A stretch of 64,000 nt of DNA from an uncultured Gammaproteobacteria bacterium. GTDB taxonomy: Bacteria; Patescibacteriota; Microgenomatia; Woykebacterales; RBG-16-39-9b. Below, piece after piece: positions 7,143 to 37,979 of the stretch. Made by a program: the position numbers and the translations under genes. The stretch covers positions 757,440 to 821,439 of the forward strand of contig OZ246414.1 in the NCBI GenBank assembly GCA_965231125.1, in the 5' to 3' direction. Numbering within the stretch: the first letter of the stretch is position 1; each line of letters begins with the position of its first letter. The notes below the pieces were generated by a model. The model was not told the origin of the DNA. It made no database searches and worked only from the letters and a program-made list of their open reading frames with translations.

Positions 7143-8630
7143 TTATCCGATAATCTTTTTCAACTTCGGGCCAGAATCAGTATCAACCACTTCGAAGCCT
7201 TTTTGCGCAATTTCTTTTCGCAACTGGTCGGCTCTTGCAAAATTATTTTCTTTTCTCGCCAATTCTCTCTCCTTCACTAACTTGTTAACTTTTTCCGGCG
7301 CGACGGCCGCCTCGGTTGCTACTTTTTCAAGATCTAGACCAAGCACCTCGTCAAATTTAAATAAACTTTTTAGTTTTGCGCTGGGCGGGTAGTTGCTGCC
7401 GACTAGTTCCCAAACAATAGCCAAGGCTTTTGGGGTATCCAAATCACTGTTTACGGCTTCTTGAAATCGACTTTCATATTCAGCACAGCCAATTTTTGCG
7501 GCGGATTCCGAGGCGTAGCCGGAAACTTCACGGTAAAGATTGTTTAAGGCAGTTTGCGCCGCCTCCAAACTCCTCCAAGTAAAATTTAGTCGGCTTTTAT
7601 AATGAGCAGTGAGGCATAAATAACGAAACGATAAAGGCTGGTACCCCTTGCTAATTATATCTTCCAGAGTATAAAAATTGTTTGCACTTCTCGCCATCTT
7701 TTGTCCGTCAACTGTCAAAAATCCGCCGTGAAACCAAAGCTTCACAAACTTTTTCCCGGTCGCTCCCTCACTTTGCGCGATTTCATCTTCATGGTGCGGA
7801 AAAACAAGGTCTTCGCCACCGGTGTGAATGTCGATGGTTCGGCTTGCCTCGGCGCTGAACTTCCCACCTTTGAATGCATCTGTCAAATACCGCAGAGCCA
7901 TTGCCGAACACTCAATGTGCCAACCGGGAAAGCCTTTCCCCCACGGGCTATTCCACATCATTGCTCGATCATCCTTAGCTTTTTTCCAAAGAGCGAAATC
8001 CGCGGTATCTTTTTTGTCGGTTTCGGCGGAGACTCGCACCGCCTTTAACAAATCCCCCATCTTATCCAAAGTATTTCCCGAAAGCTGACCATAATTCTTA
8101 AACTTTTTCACGTTGAAGTAAATCGTTCGGGAGCCGTCATCTCTCTCACGCTTTGCGCCGCCTTCGGCGTCTAAAACATTCCCCTCTGCTTCGTAAGCCA
8201 GGCCATTATCGATAAGCTTTTTAATAAGCTCGATCATTTCCTTAATGTTATCTGTCGCCTTAGGATTTTCGTCTGCTCTCTCGATATTGAGCTTTTTCTG
8301 GTCTTCCTCGTACGCTTTGGTGTAAATAGCCGCTATTTCAGCTGGTGTCTTTCCTTCTTTAATCGCTTCGTTAACAATCGGGTCGTACGCTTCGTCGGCA
8401 CCAGTTGTGCGCATGTGGCCAACGTCCGTAATATTTTTGACGTGAAAAGTTTGGATACCATTGTACTTCAAAGTCCGCAAAAGAATATCCACACTTACGT
8501 AAGTGCGTAAATTGCCAATGTGGACATTGCGGTACACAGTCGGCCCACAACTGTAAATGGTTGTCGGTTTGCCCCCCGCAAACTTTTCTTTTTTCCGGCT
8601 CAACGTGTTGGTGAGAATGACATTCGCCAT
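7143..8630 (-). CDS. cysS: cysteinyl-tRNA synthetase
   Basis: 495 aa. The CGPTVY and HIGN (HIGH-class) motifs are near the N-terminus. KMARS is a KMSKS-like variant. GWHIECS is a CysRS zinc-site motif. Confidence 0.9.
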   Translation of the reverse strand: MANVILTNTLSRKKEKFAGGKPTTIYSCGPTVYRNVHIGNLRTYVSVDILLRTLKYNGIQTFHVKNITDVGHMRTTGADEAYDPIVNEAIKEGKTPAEIAAIYTKAYEEDQKKLNIERADENPKATDNIKEMIELIKKLIDNGLAYEAEGNVLDAEGGAKRERDDGSRTIYFNVKKFKNYGQLSGNTLDKMGDLLKAVRVSAETDKKDTADFALWKKAKDDRAMMWNSPWGKGFPGWHIECSAMALRYLTDAFKGGKFSAEASRTIDIHTGGEDLVFPHHEDEIAQSEGATGKKFVKLWFHGGFLTVDGQKMARSANNFYTLEDIISKGYQPLSFRYLCLTAHYKSRLNFTWRSLEAAQTALNNLYREVSGYASESAAKIGCAEYESRFQEAVNSDLDTPKALAIVWELVGSNYPPSAKLKSLFKFDEVLGLDLEKVATEAAVAPEKVNKLVKERELARKENNFARADQLRKEIAQKGFEVVDTDSGPKLKKIIG

Positions 8631-8765: not shown

Positions 8766-9098
8766 TTGTGGTATAATGTCCTAGTCAAAATAGACTTCAA
8801 TTGCACCTGTAAAATCTATCTGAAAGAAAGGACCGATATGAAGAAAAGCGACATCCGGTTTCTAGTCATCACTACGGTGATTGGCGCTACGTGCTTGGCG
8901 CTTGGCATCGCGACTGCCGTCGTGACGGGCCCGACTGACTATTTAAGTAAGTGGGCGAGTTGGGAGCAGAATTTCACTTGGCAGCAAGTTGCAGCCACGG
9001 AAGCCATTTGCATCGGAGCTGCATTTCTAACTATCGTGGCGGGGCTTCTCTGGCTAGAGAATGACCAGCCAAGAAACAACCACAACCACGCCAGCTAA
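8766..9098 (+). CDS. small membrane protein (hypothetical); the likely start is the internal MKKSD near 8838
   Basis: Two predicted TM helices. A GA-rich stretch sits before the internal ATG. No family recognised. Confidence 0.3.
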   Translation: MWYNVLVKIDFNCTCKIYLKERTDMKKSDIRFLVITTVIGATCLALGIATAVVTGPTDYLSKWASWEQNFTWQQVAATEAICIGAAFLTIVAGLLWLENDQPRNNHNHAS

Positions 9099-9140
9099 CG
9101 CTGGTTAGGAAAGGAGAGCAATGGATCTGCAAGACCACGG

Positions 9141-9356
9141 GTGGAACAGGCTTTGAACACCTGGTCAATGTTGTTTACGTCGCTGGTCATAGTCATCACT
9201 CTCAGCATCGGAATACTATTGATGATGAGTGGCGCAGGTAGCTTGGGGGTAGACTTCCCAACCCCAGCCTACATCGCTCTTGGGTCAATAACAGTTCTGA
9301 TTACCCTCGTGACTGGGTGGATCAACCGCCCCCGCCGAAATGGGACTAGTAAGTAA
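9141..9356 (+). CDS. small membrane protein (hypothetical)
   Basis: 71 aa with two TM helices. aggaaaggagag is upstream. Followed by a rho-independent terminator. Confidence 0.3.
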   Translation: MEQALNTWSMLFTSLVIVITLSIGILLMMSGAGSLGVDFPTPAYIALGSITVLITLVTGWINRPRRNGTSK

Positions 9357-9444: not shown

Positions 9445-9954
9445 CTATTGACCAGATTTCTTTTTCTTCGTCGGAAAATTCAAGGGGACGTTGCCTCTCT
9501 GGGTCACATGCGTCTCAAGCCTTTCAATAAGAGAGCGCATTGTTTCAAGATCAGCGTGCAAAGAATCAAAGTCCTCCTGAATGTCTTCCAATTCTTCTTC
9601 AAGGTCTTCCCTAGCCTCTTCTTCTTCTTGGTCTTCCTCTTCGGCCCGTTCCTCCGCAATTTCCATTTGCCTGTTTTGGTTTACCAAAATAAAGGTGGAA
9701 AGGAAAATTGCCTCAAGAGAAACTGCTAAGGTGAGAAGACCGTAGGGAAAGGGGTCTCCAATTTTGTGGGCGAAAATTAGCCAAGCTATAAACCAGACTA
9801 CGTGAATGTAAACGAAAAACATACTACCGGAAAACTTAGTGATGAAGTCGGCAATTTTCGTTTCGGCTTCACGAATTTTTCTGCCAAAAAGTGTAAACAT
9901 GCATTCACCCCCTTTCCGAACAACAAAGTTTACCAACAAAAAACACACCCTCAC
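9445..9954 (-). CDS. DUF1003-like membrane protein with two TM helices and an acidic coiled-coil C-terminus
   Basis: FFVYIHVVWFIAWLIF...LTLAVSLEAIFLSTFILVNQNR is followed by an E/D-rich coiled coil. The start is probably the internal MFTLFGRK. Confidence 0.45.
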   Translation of the reverse strand: MRVCFLLVNFVVRKGGECMFTLFGRKIREAETKIADFITKFSGSMFFVYIHVVWFIAWLIFAHKIGDPFPYGLLTLAVSLEAIFLSTFILVNQNRQMEIAEERAEEEDQEEEEAREDLEEELEDIQEDFDSLHADLETMRSLIERLETHVTQRGNVPLNFPTKKKKSGQ

Positions 9955-11439
9955 TCAAGGCGTGGCAAAAAACATTCCACAAAGCCTGCAGTATTTAGAT
10001 GTGTTCTTACACTATACGCCTAATAAAAAGGAAAATCAACCCCGCTGTGTTATCCCGAACTAGTTTCTGGATCTCTCATAGCTTCACTCTTCGAGATGAT
10101 GGCTGACGATTGGAAGGGTCGAGGGGTGGAGCAAAAAACTGCACCCCTCGACATAGGACCGCTGAAGATGCAGATGGCTCGTCAGATCTACATCTAAAGC
10201 GGAGAGGTTGGCCAACCGCTTGCGAGAATGACTGGTGGTCGGTTAACCAACCTAGTCAACCACACCTGAGTTAGGACGCTAACGTTCCTGGTGTGGTTCG
10301 GTTACAAACTTTTCAACGGGAGGGCGATGGCGGTACGAACCGATTCTAAGTCTCAGGGAACGTAGACTTTCTCCTGGAGGTCCTGGGAGTTGAATCAGCC
10401 GACCACCATCACCGCCCTACAGAACAAACCGACTGGGCCCTCGCCTTATGTGCGCCCTATCGAATTGCTCACGAAAAAATAAATACAGTAAGTTCTCTCC
10501 TCTAAATAAAACATATTCTCTTTTTACCGACGTGTCAAGCGATTGATTGTTTGTTGGAAAATTGAAAATGGTCCCTAAAAAGGTGGAGGAGAAGTAGAGG
10601 GGTCCAACTAGTGCTGGTAGGGGACGGCGCTTTCTTCTCCTCCGGGGTTGCTACACCAGGTTCGTGGGGAAGCATGAACCTAGCGATAGCCAAGTTTGGT
10701 GACTAAGAATGTCTGGCTGACAATCCTAGCCGTTGCACGTATTTTGACCTCCTACCGAGAAGTTCATTCACTTCCCAATTCACGCGCCTTCTTCCTTCAT
10801 TCAAATGCATCACCCCTTTCTCCAAAAAGAGAGTTTGACGATGAGGGAGGGGACTCACTGTGGAAAAACCATCAGCGGTTCATCGTCATTGTTCAAACCG
10901 TTGCAGCGCTTATGCGGGACTGGATACCGGCGGTGGTTGCCGTGATACAACTATACTCCAACTTACAACCGCTATGGCGATCGTACAGCCAGAGACCTGC
11001 AACCTTGCCCCTCCCCTTTCAAGGTGCAATAGATAAAATTTAAACTTTCTTTTGGAAAAAGTCAAATGAAGTAGAGGAAAAAAATTTGGGCTAGGGAAAA
11101 CTATCCTGTTTTACCCTAGCCCGACCGGTTAGACTCGTCACCTCCGCAACTTAAGTCAGGTTACGAAGAACTCTCCATGTAGTCCGCTTAGGCCTTCTGG
11201 TCGCCAGAAGCGAACCGGGATTCGGGAACAGCTCGGGCAGCACCCCCCACGCCGATCCTTCTTGATGTTGATAACGACAATTCATATGTTCGTCATCCTT
11301 TCACAATCGAAAAGCACACGCCACTAGCGTATGCACCGTTGGGATTGCTCTTTTCTGCCCTCCTTTCTCATTTGCTCACTGCAGGTTTACTTAACCCACT
11401 GAATTCTAAGTTACAGCTTTTTTAGGGAAAAATCAATAG

Positions 11440-11474
11440 CTTAAGCATATAGTCGTAGACTATGCTTAAGCGCA
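11440..11474. other. perfect 11-bp stem hairpin in an ORF-free region
   Basis: gcttaagcata tagtcgtagac tatgcttaagc. The adjacent cccgccagctggcggg is a second perfect palindrome. Confidence 0.6.
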
Positions 11475-12037
11475 GGATCCGCAATACCTGGCCCGCCAGC
11501 TGGCGGGGCAAAAGGTATGAGGATTCTATAGGAAGGATAAGGCAAGGGAAGTGCTTCGAAGGTAAAGCCCTACCCTTGCCAGTTGCTTGGGCTCGTTTTT
11601 TTTTTTGCTCCACGCAGCAGACCTAACTAAGTATTACCTTGTCCTCACTCCCTTCCGTCAATTTGGTAAAAGTGTGTTCCCCTTCACGTCACACACTGTA
11701 TTTGGCTGGCAGCCGGAGAGGTTAGTAGCAAGCTGCCCCGTGCCTCATGTCGCCGTGGATAACGGGATGTCGGCGTCGCTGTACCCGATTCAGTAAGGGC
11801 TCGTTGTCACACCTTTTGAATTTAGCCGGCACAAGACCCTCTCCTCAATGCTACTGCCTCGACCAACCGCCCTAATGATAGATCGAATTTATGAAAAAAT
11901 CAAGAGTATTGGTGTACATTCTAACAACACAATCAGTCATTCTGGCTTGTCCAGAATCAGGTTGGTTTAGACGCGGATTCTGGAATCACTCCGACAAGTC
12001 ATACTAGCCTTCGCTCACCAGAATGACAAAAGTTGGT

Positions 12038-12475
12038 TTAGGAAAGCCTCTTCTTAACCAGAGAACTAACAACACCCATGTCGGCTTTTCCCTTTAACTC
12101 TCCGGAAAGTTTACCCATCACTTTTCCCATGTCGGTAATGCTTGAAGCTGATAGATCTTTCACTGTTTTATCAACCAATTGTTCTATTTCTGTTTCGCTT
12201 AATTGTTCAGGAAGATATTCTTGAAGAATGGAAAGTTCTTTCTGCTCTTTCTCTGCCAGGTCTACTCGCCCACCCTTTTCAAATCCTTCAATAGATTCTT
12301 TTCTTTGTTTTATTTGCCTCTGGACAGCACTGACAATATCTTCGTCGGAAAGTTCTTGCCTTTTTTCAATTTTAGCGTTGTGCAAAGCGGCAAGTAAAAA
12401 GCGGAGCGTAGAAAGCCGTAGTTCCTCTTTATTTTTCATAGCTTGCCTCATGTCTTCCTGAATTTTTTCTAGCAT
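12038..12475 (-). CDS. yqeY: GatB/YqeY domain protein
   Basis: 145 aa. The pattern MLEKIQEDMRQAMKNKEELRLSTLRFLLAALHNAKIE...ILQEYLPEQLSE is typical of the family. Confidence 0.75.
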   Translation of the reverse strand: MLEKIQEDMRQAMKNKEELRLSTLRFLLAALHNAKIEKRQELSDEDIVSAVQRQIKQRKESIEGFEKGGRVDLAEKEQKELSILQEYLPEQLSETEIEQLVDKTVKDLSASSITDMGKVMGKLSGELKGKADMGVVSSLVKKRLS

Positions 12476-14377: not shown

Positions 14378-14513
14378 CTCCCCTTCTTTCTAGACGTGAA
14401 AACGCCAAGCGATTGGAACTCTTCCTTTTGTGGGTAATTATACCATTGAAAAGCAAAGTGGAGAAATAATTGAAGAAAAAGTGAGGGCGTCCTGACAAAA
14501 GTCAAAAGACGCC

Positions 14514-18151: not shown

Positions 18152-18517
18152 ATGACCGTCGAGGAAGCGTTTACCAAAAGACTTCACAACGTTCCGGTAA
18201 CTACTAGTGGCATAGTTATAAAAATTCTGGCTGATGACAACGGTGAAACCCCTCACCAACGGTTTATTATTGAGCTGCACCGCGGCCATACGCTGTTAGT
18301 CGCGCACAATCTTCTCCGGGCTTACCGGGTGCCCGTGAAACTCGGCGATAAAGTCGAAATTCACGGCACTTACGTTTGGAATAAATACGGTGGCATTGTT
18401 CACAACACCCATCATTACGGCGGCGAGTGCGTGGGCGGCACATGCGACCCTCACGAAGACGGCTACATAAATTTCTTTGGATTAAAAAAACCCAACGTAG
18501 AAAAAATTGCCTCTTAA
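18152..18517 (+). CDS. DUF3465-family protein
   Basis: 121 aa. HQRFIIEL, LLVAHN and GGIVHNTHHYGG match the conserved blocks of DUF3465. Confidence 0.55.
   Translation: MTVEEAFTKRLHNVPVTTSGIVIKILADDNGETPHQRFIIELHRGHTLLVAHNLLRAYRVPVKLGDKVEIHGTYVWNKYGGIVHNTHHYGGECVGGTCDPHEDGYINFFGLKKPNVEKIAS
18439..18489. repeat. 51-bp direct repeat, copy 1 (inside the 3' end of the DUF3465 CDS)
   Basis: cacatgcgaccctcacgaagacggctacataaatttctttggattaaaaaa recurs exactly at 20284-20334. Confidence 0.85.
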
Positions 18518-20283: not shown

Positions 20284-20334
20284 CACATGCGACCCTCACG
20301 AAGACGGCTACATAAATTTCTTTGGATTAAAAAA
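20284..20334. repeat. 51-bp direct repeat, copy 2 (displaced original 3' end of DUF3465)
   Basis: Exact match to 18439-18489. In the DUF3465 frame it would read ...TCDPHEDGYINFFGLKKSTTA-stop. Confidence 0.85.
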
Positions 20335-27253: not shown

Positions 27254-27466
27254 TTGGTACACAGTCCGAAGTGGCACAATAGGCGGTTTTTGGATTCGGC
27301 AAATGTAGTCCAGCAGCAAGAATTTCCTAAACCGGTATCCCTAGTACTAATGGTAGTGGTCACTAGCGCATTTGGGCTAATTCTTGCCTGCTTAGGAGCA
27401 GCTGCTGGCTCAATAATAGGCTTTGGCATCGCAGTTGCTAATTTCCGCTACAACCATAGCAGGTGA
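27254..27466 (+). CDS. small membrane ORF (hypothetical), ends 2 nt before a G9 tract
   Basis: 70 aa with one strong TM (PVSLVLMVVVTSAFGLILACLGAAAGSIIGFGIAVA). Weak as a gene call. Confidence 0.25.
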   Translation: MVHSPKWHNRRFLDSANVVQQQEFPKPVSLVLMVVVTSAFGLILACLGAAAGSIIGFGIAVANFRYNHSR

Positions 27467-27467
27467 A

Positions 27468-27476
27468 GGGGGGGGG
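27468..27476. repeat. G9 homopolymer tract
   Basis: ggggggggg immediately after TGA at 27464-27466. A further TM-like ORF continues in a different frame across and beyond the tract. Confidence 0.9.
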
Positions 27477-27628
27477 TTTGCTGTGTTGCACCTTGCCATC
27501 ACTAGTTCCAATGCTCTAACCATTAGCGCAGTGGCAGCAGCGGTTCTTATACTGATGTTTGTCTTTGGAGAGCATTGGGAATGATACCCAAACTTACTAA
27601 GAAAAGGTGAGAGGAGGTTTCAAGAAAA

Positions 27629-27787
27629 ATGGAGGACCCAGACCGAGCAGCGGCGATTCAGACATTAAGAAACACTTTCGGTTGGGGCTGCTACCCGCCC
27701 TTTGCCGACTGGATGAATAAGCTGCTGCCTAAAATCCAAAGGCGCGGTTCGAATAAAAAGAAGGAGGGAGGAAAAGGTTGTCCCTAG
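27629..27787 (+). CDS. small ORF (52 aa) with a strong SD, not in the supplied ORF track (below 60 aa)
   Basis: gagaggagg sits 9 nt before ATG. Translation MEDPDRAAAIQTLRNTFGWGCYPPFADWMNKLLPKIQRRGSNKKKEGGKGCP. Hypothetical. Confidence 0.25.
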   Translation: MEDPDRAAAIQTLRNTFGWGCYPPFADWMNKLLPKIQRRGSNKKKEGGKGCP

Positions 27788-28008
27788 GAATAGCTCGTCG
27801 GCAGTGGCTAGTGGTGCTTATCACACCACTAATACTACCTGCCTTGACACTCATCCCGCTGCTCAACTCAGCACCAAACTCAGTGTCTTGGTGGTTCTTA
27901 ATAATCTACCTACCGTCCATGGCGCTGTTTGTCGGTACTGCGTTTTATTGCATGGCGAGGTTCCCGAAATGGCTCGCCGAAGATGTCTTTGGAAGGCACA
28001 AACATTAA
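27778..28008 (+). CDS. small membrane protein (hypothetical), TTG start with aaggaggga SD
   Basis: 76 aa with two TM helices (LVVLITPLILPALTLIPLL and WWFLIIYLPSMALFVGTAFY). Confidence 0.3.
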   Translation: MSLGIARRQWLVVLITPLILPALTLIPLLNSAPNSVSWWFLIIYLPSMALFVGTAFYCMARFPKWLAEDVFGRHKH

Positions 28009-37775: not shown

Positions 37776-37979
37776 TCAGATTTCGGACCGTGCCACCACC
37801 ACAGACAAAAAGGCGAAAAATATCGCCAAAAGGAACGCCGTGACAACATCCGCCCTCATCCAGGCCTGTGAATCGTGCACAATTGTTGTCTCACCAGCGA
37901 GTGCCAAAGCACTCAGAACACCAATGATAAGATAACCAGCTGCGCCAAGAGCTGATATAGCCACTCCCCATGTCTTCAT
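37776..37979 (-). CDS. small membrane protein (hypothetical)
   Basis: 67 aa with two TM helices. An additional unlisted ~44-aa TM ORF lies just upstream on the same strand (~38001-38135). Confidence 0.35.
   Translation of the reverse strand: MKTWGVAISALGAAGYLIIGVLSALALAGETTIVHDSQAWMRADVVTAFLLAIFFAFLSVVVARSEI

What the first reader, a model, noticed from the sequence alone, without database searches (positions are those of the whole stretch)
9960..12037. ~2-kb ORF-free, hairpin-rich, higher-G+C region between the DUF1003 gene and yqeY
No credible CDS occurs for ~2 kb in an otherwise tightly packed genome. The few ORFs of 60 to 115 codons have no recognisable features and overlap strong secondary structures. 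The region has visibly higher G+C than the flanks. It contains several perfect stems: the 11-bp stem at 11440-11474, the CCCGCCAGCTGGCGGG palindrome, the GGAGGAGAAG...CTTCTCCTCC stem at about 10585-10645, and CTTCTGG/CCAGAAG. Near 11930-12035 there are repeated (C)CAGAAT..GTTGGTTTAG units. I could not match RNase P, tmRNA or SRP consensus blocks by eye. It is a candidate for one or more structured ncRNAs of unusual type (CPR RNase P and tmRNA can be atypical), a large ncRNA, or a decayed island.
Basis: partly seen in the sequence, partly recalled or inferred. Interest (0 to 1): 0.55.

Follow-up and report, generated by a model that had tools for sequence, protein, structure and literature searches.

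The report
Gene-free structured spacer after yqeY
A 2.1-kb stretch with no genes in a small, densely packed Patescibacteria genome looks like a row of four or five separately transcribed non-coding RNA units of no known family, one of them shared with related bacteria, but there is no proof of function.

Summary
Window 9901-12037 (2137 nt, between yqeY and the true DUF1003 start) has no credible gene, a slightly raised G+C (0.482 against 0.448), and real hairpins that fold better than shuffled sequence.

Rfam gives nothing, even at E<=10. There is no tRNA or tmRNA, no Pfam remnant in any frame, no reading frame under a recoded stop codon, and no plasmid or phage match.

On the minus strand, the strand of both flanking genes, I read five or six sigma-70-like promoters and three relaxed terminator hairpins. 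These cut the stretch into units T2-T5 of about 320-460 nt, followed by the DUF1003 promoter and leader.

Six related Woykebacteria-like lineages also have a G+C-rich, fold-prone, gene-free gap after yqeY. Four others have only 128-235 nt there, and one has a GIY-YIG gene. Only unit T4 is clearly shared: promoter, about 120-nt core and terminal hairpin. The bodies of the other units match nothing.

Alignments give no covariation support (SCI 0.1-0.3).

Best reading: a cluster of lineage-specific non-coding or tiny-ORF transcription units at a variable site. This is moderately interesting, and the function is unproven.

The parts
11939..12041 (-). yqeY 3' end and downstream hairpins. The motif CTAAACCAAC..ATTCTGG occurs twice (12041-12016 and 11972-11951). 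ATTCTGG/CCAGAAT inverted repeats include the hairpin 11957-11939. This is probably the yqeY terminator region. The scan also reports a promoter-like site at 12029-12001, which overlaps the yqeY stop and is doubtful.
   Evidence: Sequence read. Promoter scan. A similar duplicated hairpin lies after yqeY in L170.
11875..11903 (-). Promoter-like site P2: TTGATT-17-TATCAT.
   Evidence: It is one of only two exact matches to TTGAYTTTTTY in the 64 kb. It has a borderline match to L169 3966-4000, just after yqeY there (score 38, null maximum 36).
11430..11868 (-). Unit T2, about 440 nt. It ends in three near-perfect hairpins (11580-11541, palindrome 11507-11492, 11471-11439), followed by UAUUGAUUUUU.
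   Evidence: Fold z = -2.6. The window 11401-11600 gives z of about -4.6 to -4.8. Hairpins are (I2, I21). The body matches no relative.
11408..11436 (-). Promoter-like site P3: TTGATT-17-TAACTT.
   Evidence: Read by eye. It has one mismatch to TTGAYTTTTTY. The consensus scan did not list it.
11078..11401 (-). Unit T3, about 320 nt. It ends in the hairpin 11122-11088, followed by AAA and U7 (11084-11078).
   Evidence: Fold z = -3.7. The hairpin is I13. The terminator is homologous to L165 8785-8835, with different stem bases at five positions that still pair.
11037..11065 (-). Promoter-like site P4: TTGACT-17-TAAATT.
   Evidence: It aligns with a promoter-like site in L165 at 8843-8871.
10575..11030 (-). 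Unit T4, about 455 nt, the only unit clearly shared with other lineages.
   Evidence: Fold z = -4.0. Window 11108-10747 aligns to L165 8802-9144 with score 71 against a null of 32±3 and a maximum of 42.
10695..10853 (-). T4 conserved core, made of these blocks in order: GGGGUGAUGCAU; hairpin GGGAAG/CUUCUC; UAGGAGGU, a perfect Shine-Dalgarno-like 7-mer; AUACGUGCAA; a second hairpin; UUAGUCACC.
   Evidence: A 17-nt exact match and alignment to L167 8598-8682 (score 52, null maximum 39). The same blocks occur in the same order in L165 and L168. The motif CUUCUCG..UAGGAGG is found only in these gaps among 1.2 Mb of loci.
10585..10645 (-). T4 terminal hairpin: GGAGGAGAAG, 41-nt loop, CUUCUCCUCC, followed by ACCUUUUUA.
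   Evidence: L170 carries the same stem sequences at about 7201-7240.
10510..10538 (-). Promoter-like site P5: TTGACA-17-TATGTT.
   Evidence: It gives the best consensus match in the region, 10 of 12. It has a borderline alignment, together with the first 30 nt of the transcript, to L164 8559-8651 (score 44, null maximum 41).
10100..10503 (-). Unit T5, about 400 nt, the most strongly folded part. It has four consecutive hairpins between 10118 and 10300. No U-rich terminator was seen.
   Evidence: Fold z = -5.5. The window 10101-10300 gives z of about -7. G-U pairs in two of its hairpins become C-A mismatches on the plus strand, which favours the minus strand (read). The body matches no relative.
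10011..10039 (-). Promoter P6 of the DUF1003 gene: TTGATT-17-TATAGT.
   Evidence: It aligns with the promoter-like sites in front of DUF1003 in L084 and L174.
9901..10004 (-). DUF1003 5' leader. The closing helix ACACAUC (10004-9998) / GGGUGUG (9950-9944) is followed by U6 (9943-9938) and then the Shine-Dalgarno sequence.
   Evidence: The consensus scan lists a terminator-like site at 9964-9944. The same helix plus U-run lies in front of DUF1003 in L084 and L174, and in front of CorA in L164 and L165.
10696..11043 (+). The 115-aa ORF, the longest in the stretch. It lies antisense to T4 and is judged not to be a gene.
   Evidence: No homologue, and no entry for itself, among 5.8 billion proteins. 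No tblastn match in the relatives that share the T4 DNA. Hexamer score 0.003. That score does not separate it from the small membrane-protein ORFs of other gaps.

Best explanation
The stretch is a row of separately transcribed, non-coding or at most tiny-ORF units on the minus strand, the strand of both flanking genes. After the yqeY terminator region come four units:
- T2, about 11868-11430
- T3, about 11401-11078
- T4, about 11030-10575
- T5, about 10503-10100

Each unit starts at a sigma-70-like promoter. T2, T3 and T4 end at a hairpin followed by a U-rich run. Then come the promoter and hairpin leader of DUF1003 itself (10039-9901).

The products would be G+C-rich, heavily folded RNAs of 320-460 nt that belong to no described family.

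T4 is ancestral to this group of Woykebacteria-like bacteria. It carries two conserved ribosome-binding-site-plus-start modules, GGGG-N-AUG and UAGGAGGU-N7-15-(A/G)UG. Each is followed by a very short ORF that is not conserved. T4 also carries CUUCUC and GGAGG elements that can pair either locally or with the arms of its terminal hairpin GGAGGAGAAG/CUUCUCCUCC.

I therefore infer that T4 works as a leader- or attenuator-like regulatory RNA, or as an RNA that binds ribosomes, and not as a protein gene.

T2, T3 and T5 are lineage-specific additions at a site that gains and loses DNA easily.

What is shown: the lack of coding capacity, the folding excess, the promoter-like sites, and the partial conservation. 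What is inferred: transcription, the unit borders, and any function.
For: **No coding capacity.**
- The longest ORF is 115 aa.
- Six-frame Pfam search finds nothing at E<=1.
- No long frame appears if any one stop codon is read through.
- All 29 ORFs of 25 aa or more score like spurious ORFs, except one at 0.54, which is within the spurious range.
- The 115-aa ORF has no homologue.

**Promoters.**
- The scan finds six consensus sites against 2.6±1.9 expected, and five of them are on the minus strand.
- The only two exact matches to TTGAYTTTTTY in 64 kb both lie here. Four of the 27 one-mismatch matches fall in 3.3% of the window.
- The same TTGACTTTTT-type -35 element precedes ordinary genes at 14505 and 33592.

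**Folding.**
- The units give z = -2.6 to -5.5.
- Across eight related lineages, the gap after yqeY averages z = -1.90 on the yqeY strand and -1.22 on the other strand, against 0.03 in coding controls (p = 1.7e-14).
- All eight long gaps are 3.4 to 10 G+C points richer than their surroundings.

**Conservation.**
- The T3 terminator, the T4 promoter and the T4 body align to L165 (score 71, null maximum 42).
- The T4 core aligns to L167 (score 52, null maximum 39).
- The terminal hairpin stems are identical in L170.
- The DUF1003 promoter and leader are conserved in L084 and L174.

**T4 conservation is at RNA or DNA level, not protein level.**
- The spacing between conserved blocks differs by 4 nt in L168.
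- The frame is broken in L165.
- tblastx and tblastn find nothing significant.
Against: - There is no expression data.
- The strict terminator scan finds no enrichment, four sites against 3.4 expected. My three terminators were read by eye with relaxed rules.
- The promoter excess in the generic scan is only about 1.8 sd.
- There is no covariation support. MAFFT alignments of the T4 parts give a structure conservation index of 0.10-0.31 and column-shuffle z of 0 to -1.4. RNAalifold finds almost nothing.
- The bodies of T2, T3 and T5 have no significant match in any relative.
- A single-sequence covariance model and a four-sequence HMM of the T4 core find no further copies.
- Other intergenic gaps of the window fold about as well on average.
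- Four related lineages have only 128-235 nt at this site, so the units are dispensable.
- Two of the four SNPs against a 99.88%-identical strain fall in stems. On the minus-strand RNA both would give C-A mismatches.
Confidence: 0.45

Rival explanations
1. The stretch is non-functional filler at an insertion-prone site. It would consist of remains of inserted or duplicated DNA, dead small genes and mobile fragments. The hairpins and promoter-like sites would be leftovers or chance, and only the DUF1003 promoter and leader and the yqeY terminator would do anything.
For: - The distance from yqeY to the next gene ranges from 128 to 2137 nt among relatives.
- One relative has a 96-aa GIY-YIG nuclease gene, typical of mobile DNA, exactly here.
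- The yqeY 3' motif is duplicated around a 70-nt insert in the window, and a hairpin is duplicated around about 250 nt in L170.
- Most of the sequence is not conserved, and there is no covariation.
- Two strains that are 99.9% identical differ by a SNP that changes an 8-codon ORF into a 67-codon ORF.
Against: - Neutral DNA in a 0.9-Mb genome should be lost and should drift towards A+T. Instead all eight long gaps are G+C-richer than their surroundings and fold better than shuffles on the gene strand.
- The T4 promoter, core blocks and terminal stem are kept across lineages whose YqeY proteins are only 61-67% identical, where neutral sites should be saturated.
- No pseudogene remnant is detectable.
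- There is no plasmid or phage similarity.
Confidence: 0.27
2. The units are mRNAs for very small proteins of about 10-45 aa, which gene callers miss. An example is the 33-35-aa Arg-rich ORF of T4 (10810/10804-10703), which contains the conserved motif in frame as L-L-G-R-R.
For: - Purine-rich Shine-Dalgarno-like tracts lie near the predicted 5' ends of the units, and start codons follow several of them.
- Between the window and L167, the T4 ORF keeps its frame. The indels are 15 and 6 nt, the stop codon is at the same place, and there are Leu/Leu, Ser/Ser and Arg/Arg matches through different codons (my reading).
- This genome does carry unannotated-looking small ORFs in other gaps.
Against: - The peptide match between the window and L167 is weak (E about 0.2 in a tiny database).
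- The frame is not kept in L168 (4-nt spacing difference) or in L165 (stop after four codons).
- The ORFs behind the two conserved start modules are 5, 11, 16 and 35 codons and 8, 11 and 11 codons long, with unrelated sequences.
- The hexamer scores look like those of spurious ORFs.
- A 17-nt exact match that includes all third codon positions points to a constraint at the nucleotide level.
Confidence: 0.15
3. The whole stretch, or most of it, is one large structured non-coding RNA of 1.5-2 kb, or a long structured 3' UTR of the yqeY operon.
For: - The gap is continuous, G+C-rich and fold-prone on the yqeY strand.
- It contains a 13-nt perfect long-range inverted repeat, 10126-10138 / 11601-11613, and an 18-nt repeat at 83% complementarity, 10222-10239 / 11929-11946.
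Against: - Internal promoter-like sites and hairpin-plus-U-run ends divide it.
- Relatives keep different subsets of the parts. T4 lies 150 nt after yqeY in L167 but 1275 nt after it here.
- No large-RNA family matches.
Confidence: 0.05
4. It is a divergent copy of a known housekeeping or mobile RNA: RNase P RNA, tmRNA, SRP RNA, 6S RNA, a group I or II intron, or OLE, ROOL, GOLLD, HEARO or raiA.
For: Only the general look of the stretch: it is long, G+C-rich, hairpin-rich and ORF-free.
Against: - There are no Rfam matches at gathering score in the window or in 11 related loci.
- With relaxed filters at E<=10 or E<=5, nothing appears on the region or on two homologous gaps except random microRNA and lncRNA hits.
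- ARAGORN finds no tmRNA.
Confidence: 0.02

Closest known systems
Intergenic small-RNA genes delimited by a sigma-70 promoter and an intrinsic terminator, including tandem clusters such as Listeria LhrC1-4 or Pseudomonas PrrF1/2 (from general knowledge)
   Same: The units lie in an intergenic region. Each has its own promoter-like site and a hairpin-plus-U end. There is no credible ORF. The units evolve fast, and only short blocks are conserved.
   Different: The units are three to four times longer (320-460 nt). They are not paralogues of each other. No target or seed is known. Transcription has not been shown.
Large structured bacterial ncRNAs found as long G+C-rich intergenic regions: OLE, ROOL, GOLLD, HEARO and raiA (Rfam families)
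   Same: It is a long intergenic region whose G+C is above that of its surroundings, with many stable stems.
   Different: No covariance-model match. No covariation. Most of the sequence is not conserved between relatives. Internal promoters suggest several RNAs rather than one.
Leader-peptide transcription attenuators: the trp and his leaders, and mgtL in front of Mg2+ transporters (from general knowledge)
   Same: T4 has a strong ribosome-binding site and a tiny ORF, repeated complementary segments (GGGAAG / CUUCUC / GGAGGAGAAG / CUUCUCCUCC) that allow alternative pairings, and a terminal hairpin with a U-run. The gene after the gap encodes a membrane protein or transporter (DUF1003 or CorA).
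   Different: T4 is not directly in front of a gene here, because T5 and a separate DUF1003 promoter intervene. The tiny ORFs are conserved in neither length nor sequence. No regulatory codons can be pointed to.
Decaying genes or insertion hot spots in reduced genomes
   Same: The length at a fixed site varies between relatives. One relative has a GIY-YIG gene there. The flanking motifs are duplicated. A nonsense or sense SNP separates two near-identical strains.
   Different: No detectable remnant of any protein family. G+C is raised rather than lowered. The T4 promoter and core are conserved.

Membership tests
RNase P RNA / tmRNA / SRP RNA / 6S RNA | A significant match to the family covariance model (conserved core sequence plus structure); for tmRNA, also a tRNA-like end and a tag reading frame. 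| tested here: not met
   Rfam 15 at gathering score gives 0 hits in the 64 kb. At E<=10 on 9800-12200, none of these families appears. ARAGORN finds 0 tRNA or tmRNA genes.
Group I / group II introns | Catalytic core helices (for example domain V of group II) detectable by covariance model; often an intron-encoded protein. | tested here: not met
   No Rfam match, even at E<=10. No reverse-transcriptase or endonuclease remnant in six-frame Pfam.
Large ncRNAs OLE / ROOL / GOLLD / HEARO / raiA | A match to the family covariance model. | tested here: not met
   The homologous gaps in relatives are also negative.
Independent sRNA-type transcription unit | Its own promoter upstream. | tested here: inconclusive
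   Five of the six consensus sites are on the minus strand, against 2.6±1.9 expected on both strands. The organism-typical -35 motif TTGAYTTTTTY matches exactly only here. P4 and P6 are conserved in relatives. No transcription start data exist.
Independent sRNA-type transcription unit | An intrinsic terminator at the 3' end. | tested here: inconclusive
   The strict scan finds no enrichment, four sites against 3.4 expected. Relaxed reading gives hairpin-plus-U-run ends at 11439, 11078 and 10575. The T3 terminator is conserved in L165, with changed stem bases that still pair.
Independent sRNA-type transcription unit | No protein-coding capacity. | tested here: met
   Tiny ORFs of 45 aa or fewer cannot be excluded.
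Conserved structured RNA (any new class) | Base pairs supported by compensatory changes across homologues. | tested here: not met
   The structure conservation index is 0.10-0.31 and column-shuffle z is 0 to -1.4 on two- and three-sequence alignments. RNAalifold on four sequences gives 10 pairs and -4 kcal/mol. Only anecdotal cases exist: the T3 terminator stem, hairpin 1 of T4 (G-U to A-U), and hairpin 2 of T4. There are too few homologues, and they are too divergent, for a fair test.
Pseudogene of a known protein family | Residual similarity to a protein family or to the gene found at this place in relatives. | tested here: not met
   Six-frame Pfam search finds nothing at E<=1. CorA from relatives gives no tblastn match in the window. 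tblastx between the gaps finds nothing significant.
Type I toxin-antitoxin locus | A short hydrophobic toxin ORF with a ribosome-binding site, plus an overlapping antisense RNA; often in homologous tandem copies. | tested here: not met
   Only one weak candidate exists, a 30-aa ORF at 11002 with an 18-residue hydrophobic stretch. It is not conserved. The units are not paralogous.
Replication origin (oriC) | A cluster of DnaA boxes, an A+T-rich unwinding element, and a switch of gene strand or GC skew. | tested here: not met
   Three one-mismatch DnaA boxes and no perfect box lie in the region. GC skew falls steadily across it. Genes on both sides are on the minus strand.

The most novel reading that the evidence does not exclude
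T4, and perhaps the other units, would be a previously undescribed class of mid-size (300-450 nt) regulatory RNA of Woykebacteria/Patescibacteria. Its conserved single-stranded UAGGAGGU, a perfect match to the 16S rRNA tail, and its CUUCUC/GGAGG switch elements would engage ribosomes or control read-through. The yqeY-downstream site would be a nursery where such RNA genes are gained and lost. A second novel element is the hairpin leader in front of DUF1003 and CorA, which shows one compensatory flip and one covarying inner hairpin. It could be a new cis-regulatory RNA for these membrane proteins.
Probability: 0.25. Interest if true: 0.6.

Novelty: new member of a known kind. Interest (0 to 1): 0.42.

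Why it matters
Patescibacteria (CPR) have tiny genomes with little spare DNA, and almost nothing is known about their non-coding RNAs. A 2.1-kb gene-free stretch kept in such a genome raises the question of what it does. It is G+C-enriched and fold-prone, as are the equivalent gaps of related lineages, and one of its units is conserved in sequence.

If the units are transcribed, they would add new RNA genes to a phylum where regulators are scarce. They would also give a concrete case of fast RNA-gene turnover at one chromosomal site.

If they are not transcribed, the stretch shows that even these genomes tolerate kilobases of filler at insertion-prone sites. That matters for how 'streamlining' is interpreted.

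Either way, the result warns against filing such regions as RNase P, tmRNA or similar RNAs by eye.

Tried and rejected
- **Known RNA families.** Rfam at gathering score and at relaxed E-values, on the window and on 11 related loci, gave nothing. ARAGORN gave nothing.
- **Pseudogene.** Six-frame Pfam and tblastn with the neighbours' proteins gave nothing.
- **Recoded stop codons**, as in mobile elements with another genetic code. No long frame appears.
- **Mobile DNA.** blastn against plasmids and phages gave no match. The T4 motif has no match in viral contigs.
- **Internal paralogy of the units.** None found.
- **Replication origin.** Rejected.
- **A single-sequence covariance model of the T4 motif (R1).** It gives only a partial hit in L167 (E = 0.75) and finds no new copies. 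A four-sequence HMM of the core finds no new copies.
- **Structure conservation by RNAalifold, SCI and column shuffling.** No support.
- **Matches of the unit bodies to the relatives' gaps.** None with z above 3.
- **The 115-aa ORF as a gene.** No homologue.
- **The T4 33-aa peptide.** Only a weak match to L167, and the frame is broken elsewhere.
- **Enrichment of Shine-Dalgarno-like and anti-Shine-Dalgarno-like words.** Mild and inconsistent.
- **SNPs against a 99.88%-identical strain.** Four fall in the gap where 2.5 are expected, which is not informative.
- **Closer relatives.** The nearest YqeY and DUF1003 homologues outside the same population are only 71% and 66% identical. No alignment suited to covariation analysis could be built.
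Full report
**What is there**

Both flanking genes lie on the minus strand: yqeY at 12475-12038 and DUF1003 at 9900-9445. The 151-aa DUF1003 product that starts at 9900 is the form found in public data. The gene-free stretch is therefore 9901-12037, or 2137 nt.

Its longest ORF is 115 aa. No gene was called in it in three independent assemblies. One is 99.88% identical to the window and two are 100% identical.

G+C is 0.482 against 0.448 for the rest of the window.

The G+C rise is modest. Other intergenic gaps of the window also fold better than shuffles, with mean z of -1 to -2. Those other gaps contain small membrane-protein ORFs. This is the only large ORF-less stretch in the 64 kb.

**What it is not**

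- *Known RNA families.* No Rfam family reaches its gathering score anywhere in the window. With relaxed filters at E<=10 the region yields only microRNA-type hairpin hits. There is no tRNA or tmRNA.
- *Dead or hidden genes.* The six reading frames, with stops masked, match no Pfam family at E<=1. Reading through any one stop codon opens no long frame. All ORFs of 25 aa or more have hexamer scores typical of spurious ORFs.
- *The 115-aa ORF.* It has no homologue among 5.8 billion proteins and is not itself on record. It has no translated match in the relatives that share the underlying DNA.
- *Mobile DNA and repeats.* There is no plasmid or phage similarity and no internal repetition.
- *Replication origin.* There is no origin-like signature.

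**Anatomy**

The promoter scan finds six sigma-70-like sites where 2.6±1.9 are expected. Five are on the minus strand, and I add one more by eye at 11436.

Three of the sites share the -35 context TTGAyTTTTT. The only two exact matches to TTGAYTTTTTY in the whole window are at 11065 and 11903. The same context precedes ordinary genes at 14505 and 33592.

Reading the minus strand, hairpins followed by U-rich runs lie just upstream of the next promoter at three places:
- 11471-11439
- 11122-11088, followed by U7
- 10645-10585

The strict terminator scan does not list these and finds no enrichment, so they are relaxed calls.

Together these features define four units:
- T2, about 11868-11430
- T3, about 11401-11078
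- T4, about 11030-10575
- T5, about 10503-10100

Folded whole, the units give z = -2.6, -3.7, -4.0 and -5.5.

In the T5 hairpins, G-U pairs on the minus strand would be C-A mismatches on the plus strand. This favours the minus strand. Two SNPs in stems point weakly the other way.

**The last 140 nt**

The segment 10039-9901 is the DUF1003 promoter plus a leader. The leader's closing helix ACACAUC/GGGUGUG is followed by U6.

Promoter, helix and U-run are conserved in front of DUF1003 in L084 and L174. They are also conserved in front of CorA in L164 and L165. In L084 and L174 this promoter follows the yqeY stop codon within about 2-60 nt. About 1.95 kb of the window is therefore extra relative to those lineages.

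**Relatives**

The organism belongs with Candidatus Woykebacteria-like Patescibacteria, judging by the names attached to the YqeY homologues. Outside its own population, the nearest YqeY is 71% identical and the nearest DUF1003 is 66% identical.

A gene-free gap follows yqeY in six related lineages:

| Locus | Gap after yqeY |
|---|---|
| L164 | 819 nt |
| L165 | 1404 nt |
| L167 | 1111 nt |
| L170 | 1054 nt |
| L168 | at least 622 nt |
| L169 | at least 651 nt |

L004 has a 1052-nt gap one gene further on.

Every one of these long gaps is 3.4-10 G+C points richer than the rest of its locus. In 200-nt windows they fold better than shuffles. Mean z is -1.90 on the yqeY strand and -1.22 on the opposite strand, against 0.03 in upstream coding controls (Mann-Whitney p = 1.7e-14).

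Four lineages have only 128-235 nt at this site: L004, L084, L172 and L174. L176 has a 96-aa GIY-YIG gene there.

**Homology inside the extra DNA**

Homology is limited. The significant or borderline matches are these:

| Window segment | Relative | Score | Null |
|---|---|---|---|
| 11108-10747 (end of T3, P4 promoter, T4 up to its core) | L165 8802-9144 | 71 | 32±3, maximum 42 |
| T4 core 10776-10698 | L167 8598-8682 | 52 | maximum 39 |
| P5 region | L164 | 44 | maximum 41 |
| P2 region | L169 | 38 | maximum 36 |

- The L167 match includes a 17-nt exact stretch.
- L168 shows the same blocks in the same order, but its score alone is not significant.
- L170 has the same terminal-hairpin stems, GGAGGAGAAG/CUUCUCCUCC.
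- The motif CUUCUCG..UAGGAGG occurs only in these gaps among 1.2 Mb of fetched loci.
- The bodies of T2, T3 and T5 match nothing.

**RNA or peptide?**

Between the window and L167, a 33/30-aa ORF keeps its frame and its stop codon. In L168 the spacing between the conserved blocks differs by 4 nt. In L165 the frame stops after four codons. The peptide match is weak.

The ORFs behind the two conserved ribosome-binding-site-plus-start modules vary from 5 to 35 codons and have unrelated sequences. Two L165-type strains that are 99.9% identical differ by a SNP that turns an 8-codon ORF into a 67-codon ORF.

The conservation is therefore best read as a signal at the nucleotide level.

Secondary-structure conservation could not be shown. 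The structure conservation index is 0.10-0.31 and column-shuffle z is 0 to -1.4. RNAalifold finds almost nothing. Only anecdotal compensatory changes exist, in the T3 terminator and in the T4 hairpins. The homologues are too few and too divergent for a fair test.

**Interpretation**

The most likely reading, at about 45%, is a cluster of separately transcribed, non-coding or tiny-ORF units on the gene strand. T4 is ancestral and probably acts as a leader-like or ribosome-engaging regulatory RNA. The other units are lineage-specific additions.

The main rival, at about 27%, is that most of the stretch is filler at an insertion-prone site. The variable length, the GIY-YIG insertion, the duplicated yqeY-end motifs and the poor conservation all fit this. 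The consistent G+C enrichment, the strand-biased folding and the conserved T4 elements argue against pure neutrality.

The remaining readings are less likely:
- small-protein mRNAs, about 15%
- one large RNA, about 5%
- a divergent known RNA, about 2%

**Verdict**

The finding is real and unusual for this genome. Its specific suggestions (RNase P, tmRNA, SRP or a known large RNA) are wrong. Its general suggestion of unknown structured RNA remains plausible but unproven. It is best filed as uncharacterised candidate RNA genes, a new member of a known kind, with moderate interest.

Noticed in passing
window 9901-10039 (-); L084 1030-1196; L174 5782-6000; L164 9165-9267; L165 9673-9862; L170 7295-7435; L172 3740-3890; L176 2455-2615: A promoter followed by a conserved leader lies in front of DUF1003, and in other lineages in front of CorA. 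The closing helix is ACACAUC/G(A/G)UGUGU, followed by a U-run. L170, L172 and L176 have a longer variant. Its closing helix is GGCAUC/GAUGUC, a C-G to G-C flip relative to the window type. Its inner hairpin has three different but pairing sequences. Its joints CCCGACGU and AACAGGGAAAC..AAGCAGGC are invariant. It is not in Rfam. It is a candidate new cis-regulatory RNA.
   Followed up: partly
L176 2022-2312: A 96-aa GIY-YIG nuclease gene sits between yqeY and DUF1003 in one relative, at the site of the window's 2-kb gap. This hints that the site accepts mobile DNA.
   Followed up: partly
L165 9175 / L166 3742: Two strains that are 99.9% identical differ in the gap by one SNP (TAA/GAA). It turns an 8-codon ORF behind the UAGGAGGU motif into a 67-codon ORF that a gene caller accepted.
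   Followed up: partly
window 12016-12041 and 11951-11972 (-); L170 6441-6464 and 6693-6715: The sequence at the very end of yqeY, or its terminator hairpin, is present twice, flanking about 70 nt in the window and about 250 nt in L170. This resembles a duplication made by an insertion.
   Followed up: no
window 10126-10138 / 11601-11613, and 10222-10239 / 11929-11946: Two long-range inverted repeats lie inside the gap. One is 13 nt, perfect, with arms 1462 nt apart. The other is 18 nt at 83% complementarity, with arms 1689 nt apart. The second links the region just after yqeY with T5.
   Followed up: no
window 1-64000: The whole 64-kb window contains no tRNA, no tmRNA and no Rfam family at gathering score. 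Fifty-eight of 61 long ORFs are on the minus strand.
   Followed up: no
window 8766-9356 (+), 27254-28008 (+), 37776-37979 (-): The other sizeable gaps hold small ORFs (53-110 aa) with strongly hydrophobic segments, mostly on the strand opposite the main gene direction. Only one of them was called as a gene in the public assembly.
   Followed up: partly
window 18439-18489 and 20284-20334: A 51-nt exact direct repeat lies about 1.8 kb apart. It was seen as a secondary BLAST hit.
   Followed up: no
window 1-64000: Nine-mers within one mismatch of the DnaA box TTATCCACA occur 29 times where 13.3±3.4 are expected, and no shuffle reaches 29. They are spread along the window rather than clustered.
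   Followed up: no
L164 9075-9222 / L165 9572-9721: About 150 nt upstream of CorA is conserved between two lineages (nhmmer E = 1e-11). The segment includes a hairpin with a U-run and the CorA promoter.
   Followed up: no
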